Positions 19,719 to 32,000 of a DNA stretch of 32,000 nucleotides are shown here, in pieces. How positions within the stretch are numbered: the stretch's first letter is position 1; each line of letters opens with the position of its first letter. The DNA is taken from the NCBI GenBank assembly GCA_000025185.1, contig CP001848.1, positions 4,800,001 through 4,832,000 of the forward strand, in the 5' to 3' direction. The DNA comes from Pirellula staleyi DSM 6068. Its GTDB lineage: Bacteria; Planctomycetota; Planctomycetia; Pirellulales; Pirellulaceae. The translations under genes and the position numbers were made by a program. The notes beneath the pieces are model-generated. The model saw only the letters and a program-made list of their open reading frames with translations, did not search any database and was not told where the DNA came from.

Positions 19719-19917
19719 GCGGTAACGGCTGCACTTGATCAAGCGATCCGGCAATTCTTATCTTGCGGACTTGGTTTCTGACCGCGCTAGCATCGCGTTG
19801 CTCCTGAGAATTGCTTCATGCATGAGTTGGACCTCCTCGCCTCTCATTGTTGACCGAGGGAGGGTACCCAACGATACTTGGCCTCCTGGAACCGCTAGAA
19901 ATTTAAGGAGCAAAAAA

Positions 19918-20066
19918 ATGAATACGCTTCGAATACGACTTCTTTCAGGATCACTCGCCGCAATCGTTGTTGCGTCGTTTTTGATGACCTGCCCGACGAA
20001 GAATTGCTTCGCGGAGGATTCTCTAGCTTCGCCCAACATCATTCTCATCCTAATCGATGACAAGGT
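19918..20066 (+). pseudogene. Sulfatase gene remnant (signal peptide plus the first conserved motif only), interrupted by IS66
   Basis: AAGGAG Shine-Dalgarno at 19905-19910. MNTLRIRLLSGSLAAIVVASFLMTCP...ASPNIILILIDD is the canonical sulfatase N-terminus. The expected LGYGD continuation is replaced by IS sequence, and no downstream sulfatase sequence appears in any frame. Confidence 0.6.
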
Positions 20067-20144
20067 GTCCGTTCTGCCAACCGCATCTTCGATTTTCGCG
20101 GCTGACCCGTCAAGATTCGGCTTTCTCAATCGAGGAGGCGGGCG

Positions 20145-20492
20145 ATGGCGAAGCAGCAGCGGAGTGGCGAGAGGGAGCAGCGGTGGCGTGATTTGATTGC
20201 GCGGTTTGCAGTTAGCGGCCTGTCGGTGCGGGCATTTTGCCAGCGCGAGCGTGTGCCGGAGTCGGCGTTCTATGCCTGGCGACGCACGCTTCAGCAGCGT
20301 GATCTGGAAGCGACCAGGGCGGCACCTGCGTTTCTGCCGGTTGCCATCCAGCGGCCTGAGCGGGCAACTGTCGCAGAGACTTGCGTCGATTTGCCCGGCG
20401 GCGTGACGATCCGCATCGGGGAGGCGACTTCGATCGAGCGAGTGGCGGCGCTGGTGCGAGCTTTGCGATCGTCGTCGGAGGCCCACGCATGA
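20145..20492 (+). CDS. tnpA: IS66 family accessory protein TnpA (Orf1)
   Basis: WRDLIARFAVSGLSVRAFCQRERVPESAFYAWRRTL matches the IS66 Orf1 HTH pattern. GAGGAGG Shine-Dalgarno lies upstream. Confidence 0.75.
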   Translation: MAKQQRSGEREQRWRDLIARFAVSGLSVRAFCQRERVPESAFYAWRRTLQQRDLEATRAAPAFLPVAIQRPERATVAETCVDLPGGVTIRIGEATSIERVAALVRALRSSSEAHA

Positions 20493-20824
20493 TTGGGCCT
20501 CGTGACGGTTCCACTGCGGCGCAAGTCTGGATCGCCACCGCGCCGGTCGACATGCGCAAGAGCTTCGACGGCCTGGCCGAGATCGTCCGCGCGTTTCTCG
20601 GGCAAGACCCGCTCTCGGGCCACTTGTTCGTGTTTCGCAACAAGTCGAGTCAGCGGCTCAAGATCTTATGGTGGGATCGCGGCGGGCTGACGATCTACTA
20701 CAAGCGGTTGGAACGCGGCGTGTTCCGCTTCCCGTCGACGAAGGACAGCGCACTCGCCGTCGATAGTTCCCAACTGCTGCGGCTGCTCGATGGCCTGGAA
20801 GTTGTCGCGCGCCGGGCGAGCTGA
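20489..20824 (+). CDS. tnpB: IS66 family accessory protein TnpB (Orf2)
   Basis: VWIATAPVDMRKSFDGLAEIVRAFLGQDPLSGHLFVFRNKSSQRLKILWWDRGGLTIYYKRLERGVFRFP is the hallmark IS66 Orf2 sequence. The start is Met37 of ORF 20381..20824. Confidence 0.9.
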   Translation: MIGPRDGSTAAQVWIATAPVDMRKSFDGLAEIVRAFLGQDPLSGHLFVFRNKSSQRLKILWWDRGGLTIYYKRLERGVFRFPSTKDSALAVDSSQLLRLLDGLEVVARRAS

Positions 20825-20887
20825 GTCTTTTTCAAAAACTCTTTCGGCCGGCGAAACTTTTCACGCTCATCGCGCATATAGTCATGC

Positions 20888-22498
20888 ATGAGCACAGACG
20901 TTCCAGCGAGCATCGATCCCTCCACGCTGCCCGATGATCCGGCGCTCTTGAAACGGATGCTGATTGAGCAAGGCCAGCATTTGATCGAACGCGATGCGAT
21001 CATCAATCGCATCCGCGAAGAAGCCGCGCAGCGCGAGCGATTGGAAGCCGAGAAGAAGGCCGCCGTGGAAGCGATCCTGCGGCGGTTCTACGGGCCGAAG
21101 AACGAGCGCTTCGATGTGCGGCAGTTGCTCCTTTTTGGTCAGCAAGTCGAACAACAGCCGCTCGATGAAGCCAGCATCAACGCAGAAGCGGGTGAAAGGC
21201 TCGTCACGCGGCGGATCGCCAAGAAACACAAGCACGGCCTCCATCCGCTGCCGGACCACCTGCCTCGAATCGACGTCGAGCACGACCTCTCCGAGGATGA
21301 GAAAAAGTGTCCCTGCTGCGGCGAGGCGCGCTGCCGCATCGGGCAGGAAGTGAGTGAGCAGCTTGAATACCTGCCGGCCAGCTTCAAGGTGCTGCGGCAC
21401 ATGCGCCACAAGTACGCCTGCCGCAAGTGCGACGCCGAGGGTTACAACCCGAACATCGCCGCGGCCAAGAAGCCGGCGCAGCCGATCGACAAGGGCTTGC
21501 CCGGCCCGGGCCTCCTGGCCTATGTCATCGTCAGCAAGCTTGGCGATCACTTGCCGCTGTACCGCCTGGAACACATCTTCGCGCGGCAGCAGTTGCATGT
21601 CGCTCGCAGCACGATGTGTGCGTGGCTGGCGGCAACAGGCGAACTCGTTCGTCCGCTGGTGGAGTTGATGATTCAGCGGGTCCGGCTCTCGCGGGTGATC
21701 CACACCGACGACACGCGGGTGCCGATCCAAGCGCCGGGCGAAGGAAAGTGCCGCAGCGGCCGCATCTGGACCTACATTGGCGACGGGGCGCATCCCTATA
21801 TCGTCTATGACTACACGCCTGACTGCACCCGCGCGGGACCCGCCAACTGGCTGCGGGATTACAAAGGCTATCTGCAAGCGGATGCGTACGGCGGCTACGA
21901 CGGGATTTATCACTCGGGCGCGATTGAAGTCGCCTGCTGGGCGCATGCGCGCCGCAAGTTCTTCGAGGCCAAGGACACGGACGGCAAGCGCGCCGCGCAG
22001 ATGCTCTCGTTCGTCCGCGCGTTGTACGCCGTCGAGGACGATGCCAAGCAACTCAGTAATGACGAGCGCCGCGATCTGCGTCAAGTGCGAAGCGTGTCGA
22101 TCCTGGCCGACATCAAAGCCTGGCTCGATGGTGAGCGCGAGATCGTCCTGCCGCGCAGCCCGATGGGCGAGGCGTTTACATACACGCTTAACCAGTGGGA
22201 AGCCCTCAACACGTACACGCGCGAAGGGTTTCTCAATATCGACAACAATGCGGCCGAACGGGCGCTGAAGCGGGTGGCGATCGGAAGAAAAAACTGGCTG
22301 TTTGCCGGGAATGACCGCGCCGGCGGCACCGCAGCCCTGTTGTATTCGCTGATCGCAAGCGCCGAGCGCCACCAACTCGACCCGCAACGCTACCTGACCA
22401 GCGTCCTGGCCCGCCTCCCCGCCCTCCCGCCAAGCGACGTCAACAAGTTCCTGCCCGACGCCTGGAAGCGCGCCGACGTCGACGTGACGTCGAGCTGA
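20888..22498 (+). CDS. tnpC: IS66 family transposase TnpC
   Basis: Zinc-finger region CPCCGEARCRIGQEVSEQLEYLPASFKVLRHMRHKYACRKCD, LPLYRLEHIF, HTDDTRVP, AHARRKF and NNAAERALKRVAIGRKNWLFAG. Confidence 0.92.
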   Translation: MSTDVPASIDPSTLPDDPALLKRMLIEQGQHLIERDAIINRIREEAAQRERLEAEKKAAVEAILRRFYGPKNERFDVRQLLLFGQQVEQQPLDEASINAEAGERLVTRRIAKKHKHGLHPLPDHLPRIDVEHDLSEDEKKCPCCGEARCRIGQEVSEQLEYLPASFKVLRHMRHKYACRKCDAEGYNPNIAAAKKPAQPIDKGLPGPGLLAYVIVSKLGDHLPLYRLEHIFARQQLHVARSTMCAWLAATGELVRPLVELMIQRVRLSRVIHTDDTRVPIQAPGEGKCRSGRIWTYIGDGAHPYIVYDYTPDCTRAGPANWLRDYKGYLQADAYGGYDGIYHSGAIEVACWAHARRKFFEAKDTDGKRAAQMLSFVRALYAVEDDAKQLSNDERRDLRQVRSVSILADIKAWLDGEREIVLPRSPMGEAFTYTLNQWEALNTYTREGFLNIDNNAAERALKRVAIGRKNWLFAGNDRAGGTAALLYSLIASAERHQLDPQRYLTSVLARLPALPPSDVNKFLPDAWKRADVDVTSS

Positions 22499-22500
22499 CT

Positions 22501-22788
22501 TCACCTCAACCGCTCGTACGAGTACTCGGCGTCAATAATCTTGCTACCGAGCGGATCGTCGTGCGGCCAAGTGTCACTTACCACATGCCAAAGCCCAGGT
22601 ACCGGTTGCCGTTCTGAACGATCCAGAGCAGCGATCATTTCATCCAGACTGGAGGCAATCCAGCGGAGGTTACGCTCAATGTCGATGGCCGGTTGCCCGG
22701 CCTCGCATTTCGCGAGTTCCGCGTGAACTCCGGAACGTGCTTCCTGGAGTAGCGATCGAACACGTTCTACTTGTTGGTTGGTGCTCAT
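22501..22788 (-). CDS. Small helical protein, putative immunity partner of the upstream toxin-like ORF
   Basis: I place the start at MSTNQQVERVRSLL (ATG 22788), which overlaps the TGA of the upstream ORF as ATGA. The longer track ORF (22501..22935) would overlap out of frame. I recognise no family for it. Confidence 0.45.
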   Translation of the reverse strand: MSTNQQVERVRSLLQEARSGVHAELAKCEAGQPAIDIERNLRWIASSLDEMIAALDRSERQPVPGLWHVVSDTWPHDDPLGSKIIDAEYSYERLR

Positions 22789-23150
22789 GGCTGAACCAGT
22801 CCGGTCCTCCAATCGAGTATAAACTTCTGAACTTGGCCGCCCGGTAAATACGCGCCCTGAGCGGCGGCGCGTCCCTGGATTATTGGCGTGCCGGGTGTGA
22901 TCTGGAACTGACGGAAGCCCGTCATCGCGTTCCATTCGGGCTTGAGAGCGAGACTCGAACGCGAAGCGGGAAACGTCTCAAACAACCACTGGCCAGCGGT
23001 TCTCGACGGGTCCGTATAGTAACGAATACCGTACTCGGCATTGCCAGCATGACGGAACGAAACGGTTCCTTCCTCAAACGCCTGCAAATAACGGACGCGC
23101 TCGGCCCGCGGGACGCCCATTTCTTGCAGATACTTCGACGCCTGCCGCAC
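22785..23150 (-). CDS. Orphan polymorphic-toxin C-terminal-domain-like ORF (no N-terminal delivery region)
   Basis: GTG start only; the frame opens just after a TAA and reads AFRDPHCGRPDEIYGG-VRQASKY.... The pattern GIRYYTDPSRTAGQWLFETFPASRSSLALKPEWN...FQITPGTPIIQGRAAAQGAYLPGGQVQKFI recalls TNT/NADase-type toxin ends (R...GxW/YL...R..LAL.P...G..A.QG..PGG..Q). The family assignment is unverified. Confidence 0.45.
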   Translation of the reverse strand: MRQASKYLQEMGVPRAERVRYLQAFEEGTVSFRHAGNAEYGIRYYTDPSRTAGQWLFETFPASRSSLALKPEWNAMTGFRQFQITPGTPIIQGRAAAQGAYLPGGQVQKFILDWRTGLVQP

Positions 23151-23234
23151 ACCGCCGTAAATCTCGTCCGGCCGACCGCAATGTGGATCGCGGAACGCTT
23201 ACTTTATGCGGATACATTGAAGAAAGAGACACTA

Positions 23235-24065
23235 ATGAGCGATGCAAGTTTGCCCGCGAGTGCGCAGCCAGTTGAGCCGAACCGCGAGGAGCGATGGTGG
23301 ATTGAGCGCGATGGTCGGCAAGATGGCCCTCACATCGCTGCCTACCTCGCGGTGCTATTGCGTGAGGGAAAGATTTCGCTCGCGACTATGACCTGCAAAG
23401 TTGGCGCGACCGACTGGCAAGAGTTGCACGAGAGCGACCAGCTCCTCAGCACCCTACAATCGATGATGCCGGGCTTCATGCCGCCGCCGATACACCAGAA
23501 CCGACTTGACCTGGCAATCTTCTCGTGGATGAAATCCAAGACCACTTCCAAGAAACTACCATCCTTCGCCAACGCCATCTGCTTCTATGGGCTGGTAGTG
23601 AATCCGCTCCTGTCGCTCGTCTTGAATTTTCTACTTCCATGCCTCAGCGCCGACTGGTCCTCGATCTCCGGAATTGATCCCAATTCCCCGCTAATTGGGT
23701 ACGCACCCATCTTGAGCTTCATCGAAACCACAATATTCCTTTCTCTCAACGTTGCTTTGATTGTTGGGGCCTACCAGATATTGCAGCTTCGCCCGATTGG
23801 AGCCACCACCATCGTAGTCACCATTGGACTCAGGACCGTGATCGACCTGATCAGTCTCCTCATCAGTTTCGTCTGGCTGGCACTGATCGAAGTAAGTGGC
23901 CACTCCCTCCCCACTGATCCCGAGCCCTCCATCGGATTCGGCGACCTAATCGCGGGCCTGCTCCTCTTAACCATCATTCTTGGATCCATCGCCTTCGAAG
24001 TCACCTCCCTCATCTGGCTCCTCCGCAATCGCTTCCGAATTCCGCATGATCGACGAACCGAATAA
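23235..24065 (+). CDS. GYF_2 (DUF4339)-domain protein with a multi-pass hydrophobic C-terminal half
   Basis: I place the start at MSDASLPASAQ (ATG 23235); the upstream part of the track ORF is antisense to the toxin-like ORF. WWIERDGRQDGPHIAAYLAVLLREGKISLATMTCKVGATDWQEL fits the GYF_2 pattern, and several TM-like segments follow. Confidence 0.65.
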   Translation: MSDASLPASAQPVEPNREERWWIERDGRQDGPHIAAYLAVLLREGKISLATMTCKVGATDWQELHESDQLLSTLQSMMPGFMPPPIHQNRLDLAIFSWMKSKTTSKKLPSFANAICFYGLVVNPLLSLVLNFLLPCLSADWSSISGIDPNSPLIGYAPILSFIETTIFLSLNVALIVGAYQILQLRPIGATTIVVTIGLRTVIDLISLLISFVWLALIEVSGHSLPTDPEPSIGFGDLIAGLLLLTIILGSIAFEVTSLIWLLRNRFRIPHDRRTE

Positions 24066-24226: not shown

Positions 24227-24871
24227 TTAACTCGCGACAATCGTGCGCTGCTGGTCGATAATCTGCGAGATGTCGCTTGGCACGTTCTGCGTGAAGTTCG
24301 ACCAGTTCCCAGTGGCATCCAGATCCCATCGCTGCTGCAGCGCCGGACTGGTGATCGTTTGATGATCGTTTGACAGCCGACCACGATGGAACTTCTTCAG
24401 TCGCTGCAGGCCATCGTATTCATAGAGCTCGTCAAAATCTTTGTCGTAAGACTGGGCGACCAAGTCTTCCTTGTAAGTCCGACTCGACGAACGGTTATAG
24501 CCATACTTGAGATGCACCAAGCTGCTGCCCGATCCTGAACTCGACGAAGAGGACGAGCTGCTCGCACCATAGTTTGCCCACCAGTGGTCGATCACGCGGC
24601 CGAAGCCTGCGTAGGGATTCGCGCCACTTCCGAGCACATAGTCGAGCTTGATCTCGGGCTTCAGGTAGTCGGTGGTTACGAAGGTCGACAGCCCGAGGTA
24701 GGAGTACTGGCACACCTCGGTCGCATCCTTGCTGAGCGTGCGAACGCGCGAGAGATTGTCAGCTACCGTGTCATCGTACGAGTACGACAGCACCTCGCCA
24801 CTGGGATAGGTCATGCTCGTGAGGCGAATCGTATTATCACTCCCATTCTCATAGCTATAGCCGACCTTCGG
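24227..24871 (-). pseudogene. Internal Rhs/YD-repeat gene fragment, paralogous to 27721..28355 of the main rhs gene
   Basis: PKVGYSYENGSDNTIRLTSMTYPSGEVLSYSYDD...NFTQNVPSDISQIIDQQRT aligns residue for residue with the large Rhs protein. It then diverges (IVAS-stop). It has no native N- or C-terminus. Confidence 0.8.
24246..24871. repeat. Copy A of a dispersed direct repeat (~626 bp) shared with the main rhs gene
   Basis: By-eye nucleotide alignment to 27721..28355. The copies are colinear with scattered substitutions and one 9-nt indel. Confidence 0.85.
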
Positions 24872-25033
24872 CAGCGACGGAAATGCCTATCGCGCCGAAG
24901 CGTCATTAAACGCTCGATCGACTGGCTCAAAGAATCCCATCGCATTGCCACGCTCAACGACAAGCTCGCTTACTCCTATCTCGCCTTTATCGCCAAAGGG
25001 CCTGTCAGAATAATGACTCAATTGATTTAAGTG
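24872..25033 (+). pseudogene. IS5-family (IS427/IS1031-like) transposase C-terminal remnant
   Basis: RRSVIKRSIDWLKESHRIATLNDKLAYSYLAFIAKGPVRIMTQLI-stop resembles the conserved IS5-family C-terminus (R..IER.F..LK.FRRIATRYDK.A.NFLA...LA). Only ~50 codons are present. Confidence 0.55.
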
Positions 25034-25042
25034 GGTAGGTGT

Positions 25043-25972
25043 CTAGAATATCTCGTGAGAAATTTTGCCCTCAGGCGAAATATAAAAGTTAAGCGCGAAG
25101 TTTGCTATCATCATGAAGTAGCCTGTAAAGTCACCTTGGTGAGTTGGGGGAGCAAGTGAGGGAATGTTCACCAGTGCGAAATCATTCCCCAGGTAAGGAT
25201 AAAACTCTAGGAGCGAGAAAAGGAACGCACCTGCATCGGGGGGGCGGTTGCGAATTCCTTTTCGTGGGCCATCGAGAGAAAGTGAATTTCCGCCGATTTT
25301 GGCACCGAAGGAATGTCGAAAGTTTGCATGAAATTCAGGAAGTAATTCGTTGCTTGTGATACCTAATTGTTTCAAGCATTTCTCAGCTTCGGCGATGGTG
25401 AAATCTTCAATTTCCAATACTTGATATGGAGACCCGAAGAAAACAGCGTCGGTAGCTAAGGGATAGTTGTTAACTGTGTGCAGCGCACTAACGCTACCAA
25501 GAGAGACCCACTCGAAACAAAAAAAGGCATCGTCGTCTATTGTTAGTTGGTCTATAGTATCTCGAGTAAATATTAATAAGACATCCCCTGGAAGCTTCTT
25601 GTCAAATAGGTGCTCGGATCCCAAGAAGCAGATTTGAGCGAGATATCTACAGTGGGTTCCAAAGCGTCTAGGCCATCGAGCTTTTGTGTCGAAATATGGC
25701 AGACCACCAATCTTTGTTCCCCACGGAACACTCGGTTCGCGAAGGCCCCACAGGAATAGCGTAGTGGTCTTTGCGCGATGCTGTCCTAGTATGTCAACGC
25801 ACTTTCGCACATAGTAATCATAGAGTACCAGCGCATGAGGATTGTCAATGCACAAACGCTGGCATGCAGATTGAGGCTCCGCCACGCTGACTTGAAGTAG
25901 ATTTCTCCATGCCTCAATCTCTTGGCGAGAGGGCATTTCATTGTTGCGGCTTTGCGTTGCTGATGCGTTCAT
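25043..25972 (-). CDS. DUF1963/YwqG-like protein; candidate immunity protein for the Rhs toxin
   Basis: WGTKIGGLPYFDTKARWPRRFGTHCRYLAQICFLGSEHLFDKKLPGDVLLIFT, plus a second FGAKIGGNS...GDFTGYFMMIANFALNFYI block, mirror the two-block DUF1963 pattern (SKFGGxPxxP...LLxQIn...GxLxFF; KxGGY...GDxGxxxFFI). The gene is markedly AT-richer than its neighbours and is the next gene downstream of rhs on the same strand. Confidence 0.55.
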   Translation of the reverse strand: MNASATQSRNNEMPSRQEIEAWRNLLQVSVAEPQSACQRLCIDNPHALVLYDYYVRKCVDILGQHRAKTTTLFLWGLREPSVPWGTKIGGLPYFDTKARWPRRFGTHCRYLAQICFLGSEHLFDKKLPGDVLLIFTRDTIDQLTIDDDAFFCFEWVSLGSVSALHTVNNYPLATDAVFFGSPYQVLEIEDFTIAEAEKCLKQLGITSNELLPEFHANFRHSFGAKIGGNSLSLDGPRKGIRNRPPDAGAFLFSLLEFYPYLGNDFALVNIPSLAPPTHQGDFTGYFMMIANFALNFYISPEGKISHEIF

Positions 25973-26243
25973 TTGTGATTAATTGCCGCTATGGCAATGC
26001 CGTTGATTTTTTTGTCGTATTGCACTGGCAGTATAGCTGTCAAGCGAATTGTTTCATCAAAGTGACTGCCAGCGTGGGGCAGGGATAGTCCTCTTGGCTA
26101 CTTTTATTTAAAATATGCAGGGCACAGTCTCGGTGCTAATCAAGACGTTGAAGCGACCTACATAAGTCGCAGTTGTGCTACACAGGAGAACTGACTTTGC
26201 GTTTAGTCAAGTTGTAAGAACGGATTGCAAGACGGGGGCATGT

Positions 26244-29200
26244 TTATGCATCGCAGTTTGGAGGACATGGTTCTATAATAAGCATTGGAGGTAGAATCAG
26301 TATAAATCTAGGTAAGGCAGTAAGTGATGCCAGGAGCAGTGAGGGCTGCCAGAATGGTTTCGGTGGCGCCGAAGGTGGGACTGGTCTGACCGGAACAGGT
26401 CTGAGAGCAGGGCTGCAGGGTGGGATATCAACTGTCGGATATCGATATCTAACAGGCTTGCGCACAGGAACTGGTCGCTTATTATCCTGCAGGGGAGGGG
26501 GGCAGGCTTTTGCAATTAGCTCCAAAAATTCGCGATCGCGATTTTCTCCCGTTGAGTAGTTTATGAGCTCAATTGATGGAATCGAAATTTTTAGGTGCGA
26601 GAGAGCAGCTAGCATTCCGATTCTCAAGTTGTTTATTGCTATAAGGTATTGGCAGCACGATGCTCCCACAGCTTTTAGCTGTGCGATTGTTATGTCATGC
26701 CAGTATTGATATTTCAACTTGTATTCAACGGTATAGTGTGCACCTTGGCTGCTAGCGCTTAACTCGCCTAGTTCCGTAGTAAAGTCATCAATGTTGAAAT
26801 TTAGTGGTGGCTTGCAAAATGAGTCGGCCACGCTTTGGCCAAATTCCGTTCTTTGTCCAATCTGGCGAAACCAGTGGTGCCTTGATTTTCCAGATGGATC
26901 ACTATGTATAAGCGGATAGTTTTCAACATATCGATAGAGTGCCCTGTCGTTGTTCAAGTAACCAATTGGGTCTCTATTAATCCAGTTCCCAAGCTTGGAG
27001 TGTAGAATTCGAAATCGCACATGAGAGAGGTGGGTGTTGAGTTCGAGGTAGTAGCTGCAGTAGAGTTGGTTCCAGGCGTAGGAGTTGGCGGCGGTAACGA
27101 AGGCGGTGTCGAGGGAAGTGGGAACGCCGTAGGGGTCGTAAACGAATCGAGTGGTAAGTTTGTCTAGGACCGTATCGGGATAGTAGAGCGCAACCATGTT
27201 CCAGTTGGCGTCTTGCAGGCCATAGATTCGTTCATCGAAAGGATCGGGTGGCGAAGTGCTGCGGTCGCGGAGGACAAGGTCGTCGATGTAACGCAGGCCC
27301 CATGTTTGCTGACGCTCGACGATCATTGTGGGTGTCGAAGAACTTGATGACGAGGATGAAGAACTGCTGACGGGTTCGGGCTGCTCAAGCCGTTCTTCAA
27401 TGTCCTGCCAGATGCTGGTGTAATAGTAGTGGCGATAGGCTAGTTCACTGCCCAGCGATCCCACAGGAGTGCCAACCTTGATGCGCCAAGTTTGGCCGCT
27501 GTACTCATTCTCCTGCACAGTCTGCCAAGCGTCGGACTCATCTTGCTCCTCGAGTTTGACCAGTCGATTCCAGGGGTCCCAGGTGGCGCGATAGGCAATA
27601 TCCATCACCTTGGGCTGCGGAATCATCGTCATGTTGCCGTTGCGGTCGTACAATGGCGCGGCCCACTCAGGGCCAACCGTGCGAGCAATCGCAGTGATCT
27701 CGTTCACCGTGTTGCTAGTCCGCTGCTGATCAATAATCTGCGAGATGTCGCTCGGCACGTTCTGCGTGAAGTTCGACCAGTTGCCCGTCGCATCCAGATC
27801 CCATCGCTGCTGCAGCGCCGGACTGGTGATCGCTTGATGATCGATGGACAACCGACCACGATGGAACTTCTTCAGTCGCTGCAGACCGTCGTATTCATAC
27901 AACTCATCAAAATCTTTGTCGTAAGACTGGGCAACCAAGTCTTCCTTATAAGTCCGGCTCGACGAGCGATTATAGCCATACTTCAGATGCACCAAGCTGC
28001 TGCCTGATCCTGAACTCGACGACGAAGAAGAGCTGCTCGCGCCATACGCTGTCCACCAGTGGTCGATCACGCGGCCGAAGCGATCGAAGCCTGCATAGGG
28101 ATTGGCGCCACTTCCGAGCACATAGTCGAGCTTGATTTCGGGCTCCAGGTAGTCGGTGGTTACGAAGGTCGACAGCCCGAGGTAGGTATACTGGCACACC
28201 TCGGTCGCATCCTTGCTGAGCGTGCGAACCCGCGAGAGATTGTCAGCAGCCGTATCGTCGTACAAATACGACAGCACCTCGCCACTGGGATAGGTCATGC
28301 TCGTGAGGCGAATGGTGTTATCACTCCCATTCTCATAGCTATAGCCGACCTTCGGTGTGCCCGCATCAACCGCTCCGTCGTGCTCCTGGTACTGCTCGAC
28401 CAACTGCCCAAAGTCGTTGTAGGAATTCTGCACTTCGTTGACAGGTGCTGTGCCCGAGGTGTCACTGAAGCTGGTGATTTTCTCGACCAGTCCCCGCACA
28501 TCGAACGTGGCGCCGATCCGCAGCACACCATCATCGACGCCGCTGGCGAGCGTGGTGACGGTGTCAGCCGTCTGCCGCCCGAGCTTGTCGTAGCTGTAGC
28601 TATGCACCGAGCCGTTTTGATCGCGCATGGTCTTGCGCTCTCCTTGGCGGTTGTAGCTGTACGTGACGCGGTCATCGGCATCAGCCGCGTCGGGATAAAT
28701 CTCCGCGGAAAGCAAATCGTTCGAGGCGATATCGGAACCGCCTGCCGTCGTCACTTTGTATTCATACCGCGTCGTCTGGTCCCCGGTCAAAGGATTTTTG
28801 GCGATCAGTGCAATCAGTTGCCCGCCAGGACCATACTGCATCTCGGTCGTCACGTTCTCTTCTGCCCCCGGGCAGGAGCATTCACTGCACGCTTCATGGC
28901 CGCAAGCATCACAGTCGCACGGAACATAGTTCTGGATCGTGCGAACCGTCCGTCCCGCATCATCAGCATCGACATGGCTGACCATGCCGCTCGGGTCCAC
29001 ACTTTCAAACGCCTCACCCCGGGCATTGTACCGCGAGAGGCTCACAAGCACCTCGTCGCTCGACGCTGGTGCAATGCTCGGCCGCGTAGGGGGACCGGCG
29101 TTATCGTTGGTGCCATAGCTGGCACTGGCAATCGAACGACCGATTCCATCGTACCACATCGCCATGTAGCTATCGCGACTTTTCGGCTCCGAACCACTTG

Positions 29201-32000
29201 GCCCCTGCAAACTGCCGGTTCCTGTCGCATTATGAAACCGCTGACGGCTGGTGGCAAACAGCACGTTGCTGGCATTGTCGTAAAGCGTTTCCGATTGCTC
29301 AAAAATCGTATCCCCGGTGACCGTGAGCGCATCGGCGTAACTGGTCTCTGAAGTGTCGTAGCCGGTGAACGTCGCTGTCGATCTTCCCACGCCGTCGTAG
29401 AACGTCTTGCTAAACGCCTTGCTCCCAGCAGGCTGTAGCTTGGCCACATTCCCCCGTGCGTCGTACCAGGTCTGATCCACCAGGCTGTTGCCAATCGAGC
29501 CGCTGGATGGATTCACGGCATACGTGATCGACTGATAGACTCGGCCCAGATCGTCGTAGAGCGTTTCCTGCTTGCCGAGAAGGGTTCCACTGCTGGTGGT
29601 GTTACGCCTTTGCGTGACGACGACTCGATCGAGATTGTCGTACTCATACTCCATGTAGAGGTCGATTTCGCCATCGACCGAGATTCGGCGATTCCGCCAA
29701 TCGTAGGTATACTCGGTCACACGATCGTCGCCGCTGGTGCTATTGACGTGCTGCGTTTCGCGGGTCAAGTTCCTATCGCCGCCACCTGTGCCACCATCAT
29801 ACTGATAGGAAGTGATTAGTCTCGATTCGGATATGCTTCCACCAGCGTTGAGGTAATTGACGATTGTAAGTGCATCAAGCGGAGTGACAACACCGTTACC
29901 ACTGACGTCATAATAAGGGGGTGGTGGAGGAGGGTTGACTGGTGGCTCAGGAAGCGTAGTACTGCCTGGGTTTGCGTTCAAGAAATTAATTACAAGAAGT
30001 GCATCGACATCCGTCACCTCGCCATCGTCGTTGACATCCAGGCGATTCACTTGATTTTGCCACGACCTGCCTGGAGTTCCAGGGAACTCTGTATCGATCG
30101 CAGCACTCCGAGAAATCGGTAGTCCTCGAACGTCAAAAATCGTGGTAGAGACAGAGCCACTTGCGCTCATCACATAATTCTGTCGCCCCATCGAATCGTA
30201 GCGGTAGTAGGTTCGATTGAAGTTGACATTCTTTTTCCCGAGTCCCGACTCAGGAATGTCAAAATAAACATCGCTACTTACAAGCTGACTCTTGTCGTTG
30301 TAAGTGCTGGTGCTCCACCGAACGTAGGACGACTGCTCGAACGTATCACTTGCGAGCAATAGTCCCGGGCTGCTAGTGCTGGTGCCCCGCGTGGCCTGGA
30401 TTTGCTGGACCGGACGCCCGGCATCGTCGCTCTTGGTGATCGAAATGGGGTTGTAGAGCGTGTATTCGCTATGGGCGGAGCCCGAGGCATACCCCTGAGC
30501 AGACCGCACTTCTTCGAGGGTATCGAGATAAAGCGTATTGGAGATGGTTCGCACACTCGTGCTAACGCCATCGATCACTGCATCATGGATGGGACCCTGG
30601 CTTAGCGTCGTTCTGCCAAGCAGATCGATAGAGTAGTCGGTTGTAAGGTGGAGGCCACCACCAGCGGGAGTGCTCCAGCCACTGGGAACTGACAACTGGG
30701 TATCGTCCACATCCACAATCGACTGGACGAGGGCCCCGGTCGCTACATCATAGCCCTGATTGTTGATGTACCCCGCTTCATCTCGAGTCCATATCAACTC
30801 CCCAATCACGCTGTAGCGCTCGGCTCGCGTATTGGAACTGTTCGAGCCATTTTGAGCCGTTGGAATCGCAGGTAATGTGGTTACTCGCTCGAGGATGGCA
30901 GGGAGAGCCGACTGCCAAGTGTAGCTGTAGTTGGTCTCCACCGCACCCGTGCCGTTATCGTTGCGGAATGACTTATCTTGTGCTGGGTAAACAGTCTCGG
31001 TCACTACCGTCCGGCGGAAGTACTTCATTTCCTGGAGGGTGATCGGCGTTCCACCAGTTCCTCGCTTGATCTTCTGCGATTTCTTATAGCCCTTGACGTC
31101 GCCCGCTTGGCTTGGTGACGAAGTGGTGCCGGTGATGGCCGTAGCTGTGGTTGAGGTTGGGTATTCGTGCAGCTCAATCAGGCCGTCACTGCTGTAGAGC
31201 GAAACCGAAAGTGGGGCGCTCGTGCTGCTGAGTGACCAACTTTGGACTGCCGAAGAATTCGCGTGGCTGATCACCCGAGCGGAAGTGTCGTACTCAAAGA
31301 AGTTGCACCAGCTTTGGCTTGTGGTGGCGTCTTCGAGCACATGCAGAATCGCTTGTCCGATGTAATTGGTGAAGACGGTGACGATCGAGTTGTCAGGCTG
31401 CGTCATCACCATGCGGACACGCCACTCGTTGAGGTCATCAACGAGCGTGCCAGTGCGATTAGTGAGAGCGAACGAATACTCGCGAGCCCCACCCATCACC
31501 ACTTCTCGCGTCACCTGCTGATTGGAATCGTATTCCAGGCGATAGTCGGCAAAGGGATCAAGCTCTGACGAATCGGCCCAAAGGGGGTCAATTCCAGCAA
31601 GTACTGCGCGGCGGTACGACTCTGGACTGAGCACGTACCAAAGTCCATGCTGAAACCCGACGCCGTCCGCTGAGTCAATGTAATAGCGATAGTAGTGGGT
31701 CTTGGGATCTTCCCATTCAGAACCATTCCATCGCTCCGAGACCGTCATCTTCAGATCGTTGAGGCTGCCATAACCATCCGTCCCATCGTAGTACTCGTAG
31801 CTGCATCGCTGGATGTTCTGATACGGTCCGCTTCCAAGTCGTCGCTCCAGCGTTACCGATGTGAGCAGGGCGCCACTGTAGGAATAGGAATATTTTTCCG
31901 TGTAGTACAACATGCCATCGCTGTAGGTTTTCTGAACCTCGGCGATCGAACTGCTCGTATAGGAGGTAACTTCGAGAAGCTGTCCACCGGACATCGTTGC
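26244..32000 (-). CDS. Rhs/YD-repeat polymorphic toxin (partial; N-terminus beyond the window)
   Basis: Many YD repeats (YEYDNLDRVV, YDDLGRVYQS, YDARGNVAKL, YDGVGRSTAT, YNRQGERKTM, YDKLGRQTAD). The RHS-associated core end is FVYDPYGVPT...NWINRDPIGYLNNDRALYRYVENYPLIHSDPSGKS. The frame stays open from Met 31994 to the window edge. Confidence 0.9.
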   Translation of the reverse strand, partial: ATMSGGQLLEVTSYTSSSIAEVQKTYSDGMLYYTEKYSYSYSGALLTSVTLERRLGSGPYQNIQRCSYEYYDGTDGYGSLNDLKMTVSERWNGSEWEDPKTHYYRYYIDSADGVGFQHGLWYVLSPESYRRAVLAGIDPLWADSSELDPFADYRLEYDSNQQVTREVVMGGAREYSFALTNRTGTLVDDLNEWRVRMVMTQPDNSIVTVFTNYIGQAILHVLEDATTSQSWCNFFEYDTSARVISHANSSAVQSWSLSSTSAPLSVSLYSSDGLIELHEYPTSTTATAITGTTSSPSQAGDVKGYKKSQKIKRGTGGTPITLQEMKYFRRTVVTETVYPAQDKSFRNDNGTGAVETNYSYTWQSALPAILERVTTLPAIPTAQNGSNSSNTRAERYSVIGELIWTRDEAGYINNQGYDVATGALVQSIVDVDDTQLSVPSGWSTPAGGGLHLTTDYSIDLLGRTTLSQGPIHDAVIDGVSTSVRTISNTLYLDTLEEVRSAQGYASGSAHSEYTLYNPISITKSDDAGRPVQQIQATRGTSTSSPGLLLASDTFEQSSYVRWSTSTYNDKSQLVSSDVYFDIPESGLGKKNVNFNRTYYRYDSMGRQNYVMSASGSVSTTIFDVRGLPISRSAAIDTEFPGTPGRSWQNQVNRLDVNDDGEVTDVDALLVINFLNANPGSTTLPEPPVNPPPPPPYYDVSGNGVVTPLDALTIVNYLNAGGSISESRLITSYQYDGGTGGGDRNLTRETQHVNSTSGDDRVTEYTYDWRNRRISVDGEIDLYMEYEYDNLDRVVVTQRRNTTSSGTLLGKQETLYDDLGRVYQSITYAVNPSSGSIGNSLVDQTWYDARGNVAKLQPAGSKAFSKTFYDGVGRSTATFTGYDTSETSYADALTVTGDTIFEQSETLYDNASNVLFATSRQRFHNATGTGSLQGPSGSEPKSRDSYMAMWYDGIGRSIASASYGTNDNAGPPTRPSIAPASSDEVLVSLSRYNARGEAFESVDPSGMVSHVDADDAGRTVRTIQNYVPCDCDACGHEACSECSCPGAEENVTTEMQYGPGGQLIALIAKNPLTGDQTTRYEYKVTTAGGSDIASNDLLSAEIYPDAADADDRVTYSYNRQGERKTMRDQNGSVHSYSYDKLGRQTADTVTTLASGVDDGVLRIGATFDVRGLVEKITSFSDTSGTAPVNEVQNSYNDFGQLVEQYQEHDGAVDAGTPKVGYSYENGSDNTIRLTSMTYPSGEVLSYLYDDTAADNLSRVRTLSKDATEVCQYTYLGLSTFVTTDYLEPEIKLDYVLGSGANPYAGFDRFGRVIDHWWTAYGASSSSSSSSSGSGSSLVHLKYGYNRSSSRTYKEDLVAQSYDKDFDELYEYDGLQRLKKFHRGRLSIDHQAITSPALQQRWDLDATGNWSNFTQNVPSDISQIIDQQRTSNTVNEITAIARTVGPEWAAPLYDRNGNMTMIPQPKVMDIAYRATWDPWNRLVKLEEQDESDAWQTVQENEYSGQTWRIKVGTPVGSLGSELAYRHYYYTSIWQDIEERLEQPEPVSSSSSSSSSSSTPTMIVERQQTWGLRYIDDLVLRDRSTSPPDPFDERIYGLQDANWNMVALYYPDTVLDKLTTRFVYDPYGVPTSLDTAFVTAANSYAWNQLYCSYYLELNTHLSHVRFRILHSKLGNWINRDPIGYLNNDRALYRYVENYPLIHSDPSGKSRHHWFRQIGQRTEFGQSVADSFCKPPLNFNIDDFTTELGELSASSQGAHYTVEYKLKYQYWHDITIAQLKAVGASCCQYLIAINNLRIGMLAALSHLKISIPSIELINYSTGENRDREFLELIAKACPPPLQDNKRPVPVRKPVRYRYPTVDIPPCSPALRPVPVRPVPPSAPPKPFWQPSLLLASLTALPRFILILPPMLIIEPCPPNCDA
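26247..26882 (-). other. Variable C-terminal toxin domain of the Rhs protein (212 aa after DPSGKS), family not recognised
   Basis: RHHWFRQIGQ...PLNFNIDDFTTELGELSASSQGAHYTVEYKLKY, then a Pro-rich stretch (RPVPVRKPVRYRYP...RPVPVRPVPPSAPPKP), then a hydrophobic tail SLLLASLTALPRFILILPPMLII. Composition turns AT-rich from about 27010 downward. Confidence 0.6.
27721..28355. repeat. Copy B (~635 bp) of the repeat, inside the intact rhs gene
   Basis: See copy A. The extra 9 nt (gatcgaagc context, encoding DRF) sit in a short cgaagc direct-repeat context. Confidence 0.85.
29839..30038 (-). other. Dockerin-like / EF-hand-like repeat pair embedded in the Rhs protein
   Basis: DVNDDGEVTDVDALLVINFLN, a PPVNPPPPPP linker, then DVSGNGVVTPLDALTIVNYLN. 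Confidence 0.6.

What the first reader, a model, noticed from the sequence alone, without database searches (positions are those of the whole stretch)
25043..27060. AT-rich terminal cassette: unassigned Rhs toxin tip plus a DUF1963/YwqG-like gene
The last ~250 codons of the giant rhs gene, the 271 bp spacer and the following 309-aa gene are visibly AT-richer than the GC-rich YD-repeat body and the rest of the window. Examples are runs such as tttatttaaaatatg and aaattttgccc. The composition break begins near 27010-27060, which is inside the conserved core end (…HVRFRILHSKLGNWINRDPIGY…) and not exactly at the DPSGKS junction. That is the signature of a horizontally swapped toxin/immunity module. 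The toxin domain matches no family I recognise with confidence. Its likely partner is a large DUF1963-type protein, unlike the small, tightly abutting immunity proteins usual in Rhs loci.
Basis: partly seen in the sequence, partly recalled or inferred. Interest (0 to 1): 0.75.

Follow-up and report, generated by a model that had tools for sequence, protein, structure and literature searches.

The report
Imported Rhs toxin tip with YwqG-like partner
The low-GC end of this giant Pirellula staleyi Rhs gene is an imported toxin cassette: a rare, unclassified "HHWF" toxin domain followed by a YwqG/DUF1963-fold gene that sits behind the same toxin in four other organisms and is probably its immunity protein, a role not yet described for that protein family.

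Summary
Window 25043-27026 has GC 0.46 against 0.55-0.56 on both sides and is the lowest-GC stretch of its size in the window. The GC3 change point in rhs lies at 27026, about 42 codons upstream of the DPSGKS junction (0 of 500 permutations reach it).

The sequence is from Pirellula staleyi DSM 6068. The 309-aa gene is Psta_3702.

The toxin tip matches no Pfam, NCBIfam, PDB or BFVD entry. It does belong to a very rare family: 7 homologues among 1.84 billion representative proteins, and 12 distinct loci in total. Thirteen residues are invariant (HHW, Q, C, I, TT, H, Y, CC, L). The domain always follows an Rhs DPxG-type junction and is usually followed by a low-complexity linker and a hydrophobic tail.

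The 309-aa protein is a diverged DUF1963/TYPP protein. Its only fold match is YwqG (1PV5, E 3.6e-10).

A DUF1963 gene lies directly downstream of the HHWF tip in 5 of the 12 loci. SUKH immunity genes take that place in two others.

Best reading: a horizontally swapped Rhs toxin-immunity module with a TYPP-fold immunity protein. The toxin may be an AHH-like HNH/EndoVII nuclease, but that is only inferred. This is a new variant of a known kind, of moderate interest.

The parts
26244..32000 (-). 3' part of a giant Rhs/YD-repeat gene (at least 1916 codons; the 5' end lies outside the window), including the stop codon at 26244-26246
   Evidence: Single open frame. YDxxGR-type repeats are visible in the translation. 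Homologues are annotated as RHS repeat-associated protein or TEN_YD-shell.
26889..27140 (-). RHS repeat-associated core domain, ending at the DPSG of the DPSGKS junction (26883-26900)
   Evidence: NCBIfam TIGR03696, 34.6 bits against a cutoff of 32.5, residues 454-537 of the segment that starts at 28499. Coordinates computed.
26933..27044 (-). Composition breakpoint and probable recombination joint. The maximum-likelihood GC3 change point is at 27026, with GC3 0.655 before it and 0.412 after it.
   Evidence: 0 of 500 permutations reach the observed value.
26502..26882 (-). HHWF toxin domain of about 127 aa (RHHWF...IAKAC). Invariant residues, numbered from the D of DPSGKS: H8 H9 W10 Q22 C29 I37 T41 T42 H55 Y64 C82 C83 L86.
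   Evidence: Homologues; alignments. In the AF2 model most 10-residue blocks across residues 11-130 have mean pLDDT 86-97, with a dip to 74 at residues 41-50.
26247..26501 (-). Pro-rich linker and hydrophobic C-terminal tail of the toxin (...SLLLASLTALPRFILILPPMLIIEP...)
   Evidence: Conserved at protein level in P0032 and P0034. Hydropathy. Low pLDDT in the model.
25973..26243 (-). 271-bp AT-rich intergenic spacer with no plausible ORF on the coding strand
   Evidence: Promoter- and terminator-like sites occur only at chance level. No Rfam match.
25043..25972 (-). Psta_3702, a 309-aa diverged DUF1963/TYPP (YwqG-fold) protein with no signal peptide; the candidate immunity protein
   Evidence: AF2 model pLDDT 83, pTM 0.84. 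The only Foldseek match is 1PV5, at E 3.6e-10.
24881..25030 (+). Probable C-terminal remnant of an IS4/IS5-type DDE transposase, marking the distal edge of the cassette
   Evidence: Translation ...RSIDWLKESHRIATLNDKLAYSYLAF.... Weak PF13586 hit, E 0.03. The assignment is tentative.
24243..24871 (-). Displaced and truncated duplicate of rhs core sequence, corresponding to 27718-28355
   Evidence: Direct repeats D1 and D2, 92% and 94% identical. The translation matches the core and stops abruptly.

Best explanation
Window 25043-27026 is a horizontally acquired replacement 3' end for the Rhs gene of Pirellula staleyi.

The incoming DNA recombined inside the conserved core end, about 42 codons before the DPxG junction. 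It brought three things: (i) the last piece of a foreign core; (ii) a toxin tip of a rare, unclassified family (the HHWF domain, followed by a Pro-rich linker and a hydrophobic tail); and (iii) a cytoplasmic TYPP/DUF1963 (YwqG-fold) protein, Psta_3702.

By analogy with other Rhs systems, the tip would be released at the junction and delivered into a rival cell. This step is inferred, not shown. Psta_3702 most likely binds the HHWF domain in the producer and neutralises it, which makes it the cognate immunity protein.

The toxin is probably a metal-dependent enzyme that acts in the cytoplasm. My preferred guess is a diverged AHH-like HNH/EndoVII (beta-beta-alpha-metal) nuclease. In that reading the HH dyad and H55 form the active site and metal site, and four conserved cysteines form a structural Zn or disulfide site.

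Shown: the composition break, the architecture, the existence of the family, the fold of Psta_3702 and the recurrent gene linkage. Inferred: immunity, cleavage and delivery, and nuclease chemistry.
For: Imported cassette:
- GC3 0.65 falls to 0.41 at 27026, with 0 of 500 permutations reaching the observed value.
- The toxin tip, spacer and partner gene share the low GC.
- An IS remnant and a 92-94% identical duplicate of the core lie distal to the cassette.

Rhs context:
- TIGR03696 ends exactly at DPSG.

Toxin family:
- An exhaustive phmmer search found 7 true homologues among 1.84e9 representative proteins. DNA-pattern scans added 4 loci and a reverse look-up added 1.
- Wherever upstream sequence is available, the domain follows an Rhs-type junction.
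- 13 residues are invariant across 13 sequences that share only 20-40% identity.
- The AF2 model is confident over the N-terminal domain.

Partner gene:
- All 25 homologues of Psta_3702 carry PF09234. The fold matches only 1PV5 YwqG. The GGxP motif and the conserved Q are present (criteria from PMC4275035).
- Linkage: a DUF1963 gene is the next gene on the same strand, 33-323 bp downstream of an HHWF tip, in the window, L004, L012 (P0010), L013/L014 and L019/L020 (P0011).
- These toxin-partner pairs are only 27-49% identical to each other, so they are old and independent.
- In L006 and L007 the same position is held by SMI1/KNR4 (SUKH) proteins. SUKH is an established immunity superfamily, mostly paired with HNH-fold nucleases (PMC3482391).
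- No other ORF in the cassette could serve as immunity.

Nuclease guess:
- The motif order xHH...N/D...H...(H)...Y parallels Tox-AHH '[AG]HH, N, H, H, Y' (PMC3482391).
- The model's strand(HH)-helix-strand(TT)-helix(H55) order fits a beta-beta-alpha-metal finger with an insert.
- P0032 residues 8-56 weakly hit TIGR02269 SitA6 (E 0.04). The tested SitA6 alleles contain AHH nucleases (PMC8546572).
Against: - No experiment or complex prediction supports binding or protection.
- 309 aa is large for an Rhs immunity protein, and the 271-bp gap is long.
- At least four of the nearest homologues of Psta_3702 sit alone among housekeeping genes, not next to toxins.
- Partner type does not follow the toxin-tip tree: TYPP-linked and SUKH-linked tips are interleaved.
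- The characterised eukaryotic TYPP relatives are chaperones, not inhibitors (PMC4275035; PMC7736825).
- For the nuclease idea: no AHH or HNH model is hit even at E<=10 in any of 12 members. Foldseek finds no PDB or BFVD relative. The Asn position is not invariant. A hydrophobic C-terminal tail is not typical of nuclease tips.
Confidence: 0.6

Rival explanations
1. Psta_3702 is not an inhibitor. It is instead a dedicated chaperone or adaptor that binds the extended Pro-rich or hydrophobic part of the toxin and keeps it soluble for loading into the Rhs shell or for export. Immunity would then be supplied elsewhere or not be needed.
For: TYPP proteins are proposed to bind extended peptides and act like chaperones (PMC4275035). 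PDCD2 is described as a dedicated chaperone of uS5 (title of PMC7736825, listed). Most HHWF tips carry long disordered or hydrophobic tails.
Against: The L013/L014 tip has no tail at all, yet it still has a DUF1963 partner. Tips with tails are also paired with SUKH proteins (L006, L007). The gene sits in the downstream immunity position, where SUKH genes replace it in other loci. No other candidate immunity ORF exists in the cassette.
Confidence: 0.2
2. The HHWF tip is not a nuclease. It could be a different metal-dependent enzyme (peptidase, phosphoesterase or similar), or a membrane-acting toxin whose hydrophobic tail inserts into the target's inner membrane.
For: No hit to any HNH/EndoVII model or structure was found. 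A hydrophobic 19-residue segment with mean Kyte-Doolittle hydropathy above 1.4 occurs about 150-190 residues after the HH dyad in six of the 13 tips; a seventh such segment, in the short P0027 tip, lies only about 100 residues after it. Four invariant or near-invariant cysteines suggest a metal cluster of unknown role.
Against: Membrane-acting toxins usually have membrane-bound immunity proteins. Here the partners (TYPP, SUKH) are soluble and cytoplasmic. SUKH partners are mostly linked to nucleases (PMC3482391). The tail is missing or not hydrophobic in several members (L013, L008, L011), whereas the HH/H/Y/TT core is invariant.
Confidence: 0.35
3. The DUF1963 gene is a passenger with no functional tie to the toxin. 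The low GC reflects only a generic genomic island bounded by insertion sequences.
For: IS remnants and an IS66 element lie next to the cassette. Several close DUF1963 homologues stand alone in other genomes.
Against: The same gene order, HHWF tip followed by DUF1963, recurs in five distinct loci whose proteins are only 27-49% identical. One of these loci was found starting from the DUF1963 side. The composition break lies inside the rhs reading frame and keeps the frame intact.
Confidence: 0.05

Closest known systems
Rhs polymorphic toxin-immunity loci with displaced 'orphan' core fragments (Enterobacterial and Dickeya Rhs systems; general description in Zhang et al. 2012, PMC3482391)
   Same: A YD-repeat shell and an RHS-associated core that ends at a DPxG junction. 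A variable C-terminal toxin, followed by a downstream gene on the same strand. A composition break at the swapped 3' end. A duplicated core fragment downstream.
   Different: The host is a planctomycete and the Rhs protein carries a dockerin domain. The junction reads DPSGKS rather than DPxGL. The toxin domain is unclassified. The partner is a 309-aa TYPP-fold protein placed after a 271-bp gap. The downstream duplicate is a bare core fragment with no toxin or immunity gene of its own.
Tox-AHH and the other 'sHH' HNH/EndoVII nuclease toxin domains (PF14412 and relatives; PMC3482391)
   Same: The position at the tip of Rhs proteins. An N-terminal xHH dyad followed by hydrophobic residues and often a Pro (HHWFP). 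The later N/D, H, (H), Y order. Association with SUKH immunity in some loci. One weak hit to the AHH-bearing SitA6 family (PMC8546572).
   Different: No significant match to any of these Pfam models. The first motif position is R, D, Q, G or E, not A or G. There is an invariant TT where AHH has its Asn region. There are four conserved Cys, an extra helical bundle, a long linker and a hydrophobic tail. No fold match was obtained.
SUKH (SMI1/KNR4) immunity proteins
   Same: They occupy the gene position directly after HHWF tips in L006 and L007. Like Psta_3702 they are soluble cytoplasmic proteins, and they also occur as stand-alone genes.
   Different: The fold and family are unrelated. Psta_3702 shows no SUKH match.
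YwqG of Bacillus subtilis (PDB 1PV5) and the TYPP superfamily (TSR4, PDCD2, PDCD2L; PMC4275035)
   Same: The fold (Foldseek E 3.6e-10, TM 0.49/0.56). The two-repeat all-beta architecture. The GGxP motif (GGLP 89-92) and the conserved Gln (Q113).
   Different: Only 16% identity to 1PV5. The Pfam score is below the gathering threshold. There is an extra conserved N-terminal helical extension. The second repeat has degenerate motifs (GGNS, and no Gln). No bacterial TYPP protein has an assigned role, and none has been tied to toxin immunity in the literature I could search.

Membership tests
Rhs / YD-repeat polymorphic toxin | RHS repeat-associated core domain (TIGR03696) ending at the DPxG(L) junction | tested here: met
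   34.6 bits against a cutoff of 32.5. The match ends at the DPSG of DPSGKS.
Rhs / YD-repeat polymorphic toxin | YD (RHS) repeats forming the shell | tested here: inconclusive
   Pfam RHS_repeat is only sub-threshold (E 0.087). Many YDxxGR-type motifs are visible in the translation. Homologues carry TEN_YD-shell or RHS annotations.
Rhs / YD-repeat polymorphic toxin | Variable C-terminal domain that differs between loci sharing a related core, with a downstream cognate gene | tested here: met
   The composition break inside the core end. L019 has a closely related core but a tip only 37% identical. A downstream gene on the same strand is present.
Rhs / YD-repeat polymorphic toxin | Autoproteolytic release and toxicity of the C-terminal domain | not testable with these tools
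   This needs expression and biochemistry.
Tox-AHH (PF14412) / sHH HNH-EndoVII nuclease toxins | Significant match to the family profile | tested here: not met
   No AHH, HNH, GHH, SHH, LHH or WHH model was reported at E<=10: Pfam was scanned with 8 members, NCBIfam with 12. The only hint is TIGR02269 at E 0.04 in one member.
Tox-AHH (PF14412) / sHH HNH-EndoVII nuclease toxins | Motif set [AG]HH, N, H, H, Y (PMC3482391) | tested here: inconclusive
   HH, H55 and Y64 are invariant. The residue before HH is R, D, Q, G or E. The Asn position is N, D, S or K. The second His is present in about half of the members.
Tox-AHH (PF14412) / sHH HNH-EndoVII nuclease toxins | Beta-beta-alpha-metal fold | tested here: inconclusive
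DUF1963 / TYPP (YwqG family) | Pfam PF09234 above the gathering threshold | tested here: not met
   18.5 bits against 23, covering only profile positions 1-51. All 25 homologues carry PF09234, and the partners in L004, L012 and L013 pass the threshold.
DUF1963 / TYPP (YwqG family) | YwqG fold (two-repeat all-beta unit, 1PV5) | tested here: met
   AF2 model pLDDT 83. The only significant Foldseek PDB hit is 1PV5, at E 3.6e-10 and probability 1.00.
DUF1963 / TYPP (YwqG family) | GGxP motif and conserved Gln (PMC4275035) | tested here: met
   GGLP at 89-92 and Q113 are invariant in alignment A1. The second repeat is degenerate (GGNS 227-230, no Gln).
Polymorphic-toxin immunity protein (functional class) | Encoded directly downstream of the toxin on the same strand, recurrently with that toxin family | tested here: met
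   5 of 12 distinct HHWF loci. SUKH proteins hold the same position in 2 others.
Polymorphic-toxin immunity protein (functional class) | Binds and neutralises the cognate toxin | not testable with these tools
This needs co-expression and pull-down experiments.

The most novel reading that the evidence does not exclude
The TYPP/DUF1963 (YwqG) fold is a previously unrecognised immunity-protein superfamily of bacterial polymorphic toxin systems. If so, the eukaryotic ribosomal-protein chaperones PDCD2, PDCD2L and TSR4 would descend from bacterial toxin binders, in the same way that SUKH and SuFu proteins do. The HHWF domain would be a new toxin fold or clade, with an unusual C-terminal hydrophobic delivery or anchoring tail.
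Probability: 0.45. Interest if true: 0.7.

Novelty: new variant of a known kind. Interest (0 to 1): 0.55.

Why it matters
Rhs toxin-immunity cassettes are well known, so the swap itself is ordinary. Two things make this case worth noting.

First, it defines a rare toxin domain, so far seen mainly in Planctomycetes and Verrucomicrobia, that is absent from Pfam, NCBIfam and the PDB and has a clear catalytic-looking signature.

Second, it gives the first recurrent genomic context for bacterial YwqG/DUF1963 proteins. Their structure has been public since 2004 (1PV5), but their bacterial role is still unknown (PMC4275035). The linkage leads to a directly testable prediction: that they act as toxin binders or immunity proteins.

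If that holds, it would also suggest where the eukaryotic PDCD2/TSR4 chaperone family came from.

Tried and rejected
- Word-indexed protein search with the toxin tip: no hit, not even its own parent protein. The exhaustive search was needed.
- tblastn of the tip and of the IS remnant against plasmids: nothing.
- Profile searches of the tip family against Pfam, NCBIfam and PDB sequences: only noise (MinC_N, PI-PLC, purA and similar).
- Foldseek of the tip model against PDB and BFVD: no hit with E<1.
The pattern had to fix the first His codon as CAC, so loci using CAT are missed, and HHWL variants such as L019 were also missed.
- L010 (Psychroserpens) was a chance pattern match in a P-type ATPase/HemN region.
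- hhalign of the 251-aa partner in L005 against the TYPP profile: no relation.
- The neighbour-joining tree of TYPP proteins is star-like. It does not separate toxin-linked members from stand-alone members.
- Promoter and terminator scan of the spacer: chance level. Rfam: nothing.
- I considered a small immunity ORF hidden in the 271-bp spacer. Only 21-24-aa ORFs exist on the coding strand, so I rejected the idea.
- I considered that the Pro-rich tail might be out-of-frame junk. I rejected this because P0032 and P0034 have matching tails.
Full report
**1. The observation**

GC in 500-bp bins drops to 0.43-0.49 between 25001 and 27000. The rest of the window runs at about 0.53-0.60, and 150-bp bins put the upstream edge near 27000-27075.

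The effect lies in codon third positions. GC3 is 0.649 in the rhs core, 0.411 after DPSGKS and 0.455 in the 309-aa gene, while GC1 and GC2 hardly change. The 271-bp spacer has GC 0.454.

A maximum-likelihood change-point analysis of GC3 along the rhs frame places the break at codon 1659, which is window 27026. The 2-log-likelihood support interval is 27044-26933, and none of 500 permutations reaches the observed likelihood ratio.

The 1984-bp stretch 25043-27026 has GC 0.462. It is the lowest-GC window of that size in the whole 32 kb.

**2. Source and gene content**

The 309-aa product is identical to Psta_3702 of Pirellula staleyi DSM 6068.

The large minus-strand ORF (26244-32000) runs off the window. 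It contains the following:
- YD-type repeats;
- a Dockerin_1 domain at 29847-30038;
- an RHS repeat-associated core domain, TIGR03696, scoring 34.6 bits against a cutoff of 32.5, which ends exactly at the DPSG of DPSGKS.

It is therefore an Rhs-type polymorphic toxin with a 212-residue tip after the junction.

Distal to the 309-aa gene lie two further features. The first is a probable C-terminal remnant of an IS4/IS5-type transposase on the plus strand at 24881-25030 (weak PF13586 hit at E 0.03). The second is a 629-bp, 92-94% identical duplicate of rhs core sequence: 24243-24871 corresponds to 27718-28355. The duplicate breaks off abruptly. An IS66 element follows at about 20.4-22.5 kb.

This is the layout expected when a new 3' end recombines into an rhs core and displaces older sequence, here with IS activity around it.

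**3. The toxin tip**

The tip gives no Pfam hit at E<=1 and no hit in the word-indexed protein search.

An exhaustive phmmer search of 1.84 billion cluster representatives found eight proteins at E<=0.001. Seven of them align over the first ~90-180 residues of the tip (~130 in most); the eighth is a repetitive, low-complexity match.

In all seven the domain starts directly after an Rhs-type junction (DPSGL, DPLGL, DPYGL and similar). One of them is the C-terminus of a 5450-aa protein.

A degenerate DNA pattern for HHWF..Q..C..I..[FY]TT added loci as follows:
- two from a Verrucomicrobiota MAG, L008 and L011;
- the Rubritalea locus already known, L009 = L007;
- one metagenome locus, L012, and a second one that appears as two copies of the same sequence, L013 and L014;
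- one chance hit, L010.

A look-up that started from a DUF1963 homologue (P0011) revealed one more locus, L019/L020. Its Rhs core is clearly related to the P. staleyi core, and its tip has HHWL in place of HHWF.

Thirteen sequences that share only about 20-40% identity keep 13 residues invariant: H8 H9 W10 Q22 C29 I37 T41 T42 H55 Y64 C82 C83 L86, numbered from the D of DPSGKS. C133 is nearly invariant.

AF2 run with the eight-sequence alignment gives a confident model for the N-terminal domain: most 10-residue blocks across residues 11-130 have mean pLDDT 86-97, with a dip to 74 at 41-50. The element order is strand (the HH dyad), helix, strand (TT), helix starting at H55, then a helical bundle. 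The tail is disordered.

None of the following found a relative:
- Pfam or NCBIfam scans of every member;
- profile searches against PDB sequences;
- Foldseek against PDB or BFVD.

Downstream of the domain, most members have a long low-complexity linker. It is Pro-rich in P. staleyi, P0032 and P0034. A hydrophobic segment follows near the C-terminus, and several sequences end in a P-x-[ML]-L-x-[IL]-[DE]-like motif. The tail is conserved at protein level, so it is real coding sequence. I cannot explain its role.

**4. What the toxin may do (inferred)**

The invariant residues look catalytic or metal-binding.

Their order is xHH followed by hydrophobic residues and often Pro (HHWFP), then N/D-I-x-x-[FY]-T-T, then H, sometimes a second H, then Y. 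This parallels the signature listed for Tox-AHH in Zhang et al. 2012: '[AG]HH, N, H, H, Y', HNH/EndoVII fold (PMC3482391). The secondary-structure order in the model would fit a beta-beta-alpha-metal finger with a helical insert.

Two of the loci have SUKH partners, and in that survey SUKH is paired mostly with HNH-fold nucleases.

One member (P0032, residues 8-56) gives a weak hit (E 0.04) to TIGR02269, the SitA6 family. The tested SitA6 alleles contain AHH nucleases (PMC8546572).

All of this is suggestive and none of it is significant. The family fails the profile test for AHH and its relatives, so I do not file it there. I put about 35-40% on 'AHH-like HNH/EndoVII nuclease'.

**5. The 309-aa protein**

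The Pfam score for DUF1963 is sub-threshold: 18.5 bits against 23, covering only the first 51 profile positions. However, all 25 database homologues (24-28% identity across the whole alignment; up to 47% over local BLASTP stretches) carry PF09234.

The alignment shows the invariant TKIGGLPY (the GGxP motif) and Q113. These are the two hallmarks of the TYPP superfamily defined by Burroughs and Aravind (PMC4275035).

The AF2 model (pLDDT 83, pTM 0.84) has a single significant Foldseek hit in the PDB: YwqG, 1PV5, at E 3.6e-10 and probability 1.00.

The protein has no signal peptide.

**6. Linkage**

The first gene downstream of the HHWF tip, on the same strand, is as follows.

| Downstream gene | Loci |
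|---|---|
| DUF1963 protein | window (271-bp gap); L004 (155 bp); L012 (about 41 bp, = P0010); L013/L014 (about 300 bp); L019/L020 (33 bp, = P0011) |
| SMI1/KNR4 (SUKH) protein | L006; L007 |
| Unassigned 169-199-aa protein family | two Verrucomicrobiota loci |
| Unassigned 251-aa protein | L005 |
| Unassigned 340-aa protein | P0034 contig |
| 199-aa protein with faint WD40 hits | P0032 contig |

That makes five of twelve distinct loci with a DUF1963 partner.

Within those five, the tips are 27-42% identical to each other and the partners 33-49%. The linkage is therefore old and independent, not one recent clone. DUF1963 is an uncommon family, so this enrichment cannot be chance. That last step is my inference; I have no formal background rate.

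The cassette contains no other plausible ORF.

Points against a simple picture:
- At least four homologues of Psta_3702 (P0002, P0005, P0009, P0021) stand alone among housekeeping genes. The same is true of many SUKH genes.
- TYPP-linked and SUKH-linked tips are interleaved in the toxin-tip tree. Partner type has therefore switched several times, or some loci hold non-cognate immunity genes.

**7. Interpretation**

The best-supported reading is a horizontally swapped Rhs toxin-immunity module in which a TYPP-fold protein is the cognate binder of the HHWF domain.

Immunity is the most economical role, for three reasons: the gene's position, its replacement by SUKH genes in other loci, and the presence of a partner even for the tail-less tip in L013.

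A chaperone or adaptor role is the main rival. It is prompted by what is known of eukaryotic TYPP proteins (PMC4275035; PMC7736825).

I found no paper that links DUF1963, YwqG or TYPP to toxin immunity. The library searched is limited to open-access text.

**8. Verdict**

The kind of system is well known. The toxin domain and the partner family are not yet catalogued in this role. I rate it a new variant of a known kind, with interest 0.55.

Noticed in passing
window 24243-24871 (-), and 24881-25030 (+): A 629-bp duplicate of rhs core sequence, 92-94% identical to 27718-28355, lies just beyond the cassette. It ends abruptly (..QQRT|IVAS*). A probable IS4/IS5-type transposase C-terminal remnant precedes it. 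Together they look like the displaced stump of an earlier rhs 3' end.
   Followed up: partly
window 19735-22498 (+): An IS66-family element: TnpB-like ORF at 20381-20821 and DDE transposase at 20888-22498. Its GC of 0.61 is higher than the surroundings. It lies about 2 kb from the rhs fragment.
   Followed up: partly
window 29847-30038 (-): A Dockerin type I domain (two DxNxDGxVT-like loops separated by a poly-Pro stretch) is embedded in the Rhs protein. This is unusual for Rhs proteins and may bear on how a planctomycete displays or exports it.
   Followed up: no
window approx. 27200-29000 (-), within the Rhs core translation: The core contains a Cys-rich insert (CDCDACGHEACSECSC) and two poly-Ser tracts. 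One of the poly-Ser tracts is also present in the duplicated fragment and in the related Rhs of L019.
   Followed up: no
window 26247-26501 (-); also the tips in L004, L006, L012, L019, and P0032 and P0034: Most HHWF tips end in a long low-complexity (often Pro-rich) linker plus a hydrophobic segment. Several finish with a P-x-[ML]-L-x-[IL]-[DE]-like motif (PPMLIIEP, PLEMLGIDP, MPILGIDE, APLMLLDP, IPEILKRAG). The function is unknown, and the feature does not correlate with partner type.
   Followed up: partly
L008 1782-2324 (-) and 385-984 (-); L011 1230-1739 (+): In a Verrucomicrobiota MAG the HHWF tips are followed by related 169-199-aa proteins with no Pfam family. L008 holds a second paralogue after an orphan Rhs fragment. 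These may be a further immunity family for the same toxin.
   Followed up: partly
window 23049-24065 (+) and 22501-22935 (-): Two ORFs lie between the rhs fragment and IS66 with only weak domain hints: GYF_2 at E 5e-4 and CATRA-C at E 7.5e-3. Their nature is unclear.
   Followed up: no
(database behaviour): Searches with the tip did not return its own parent Rhs protein. The likely reason is that the cluster representative carries a different tip. Tip families of polymorphic toxins can therefore be under-counted in clustered databases.
   Followed up: no
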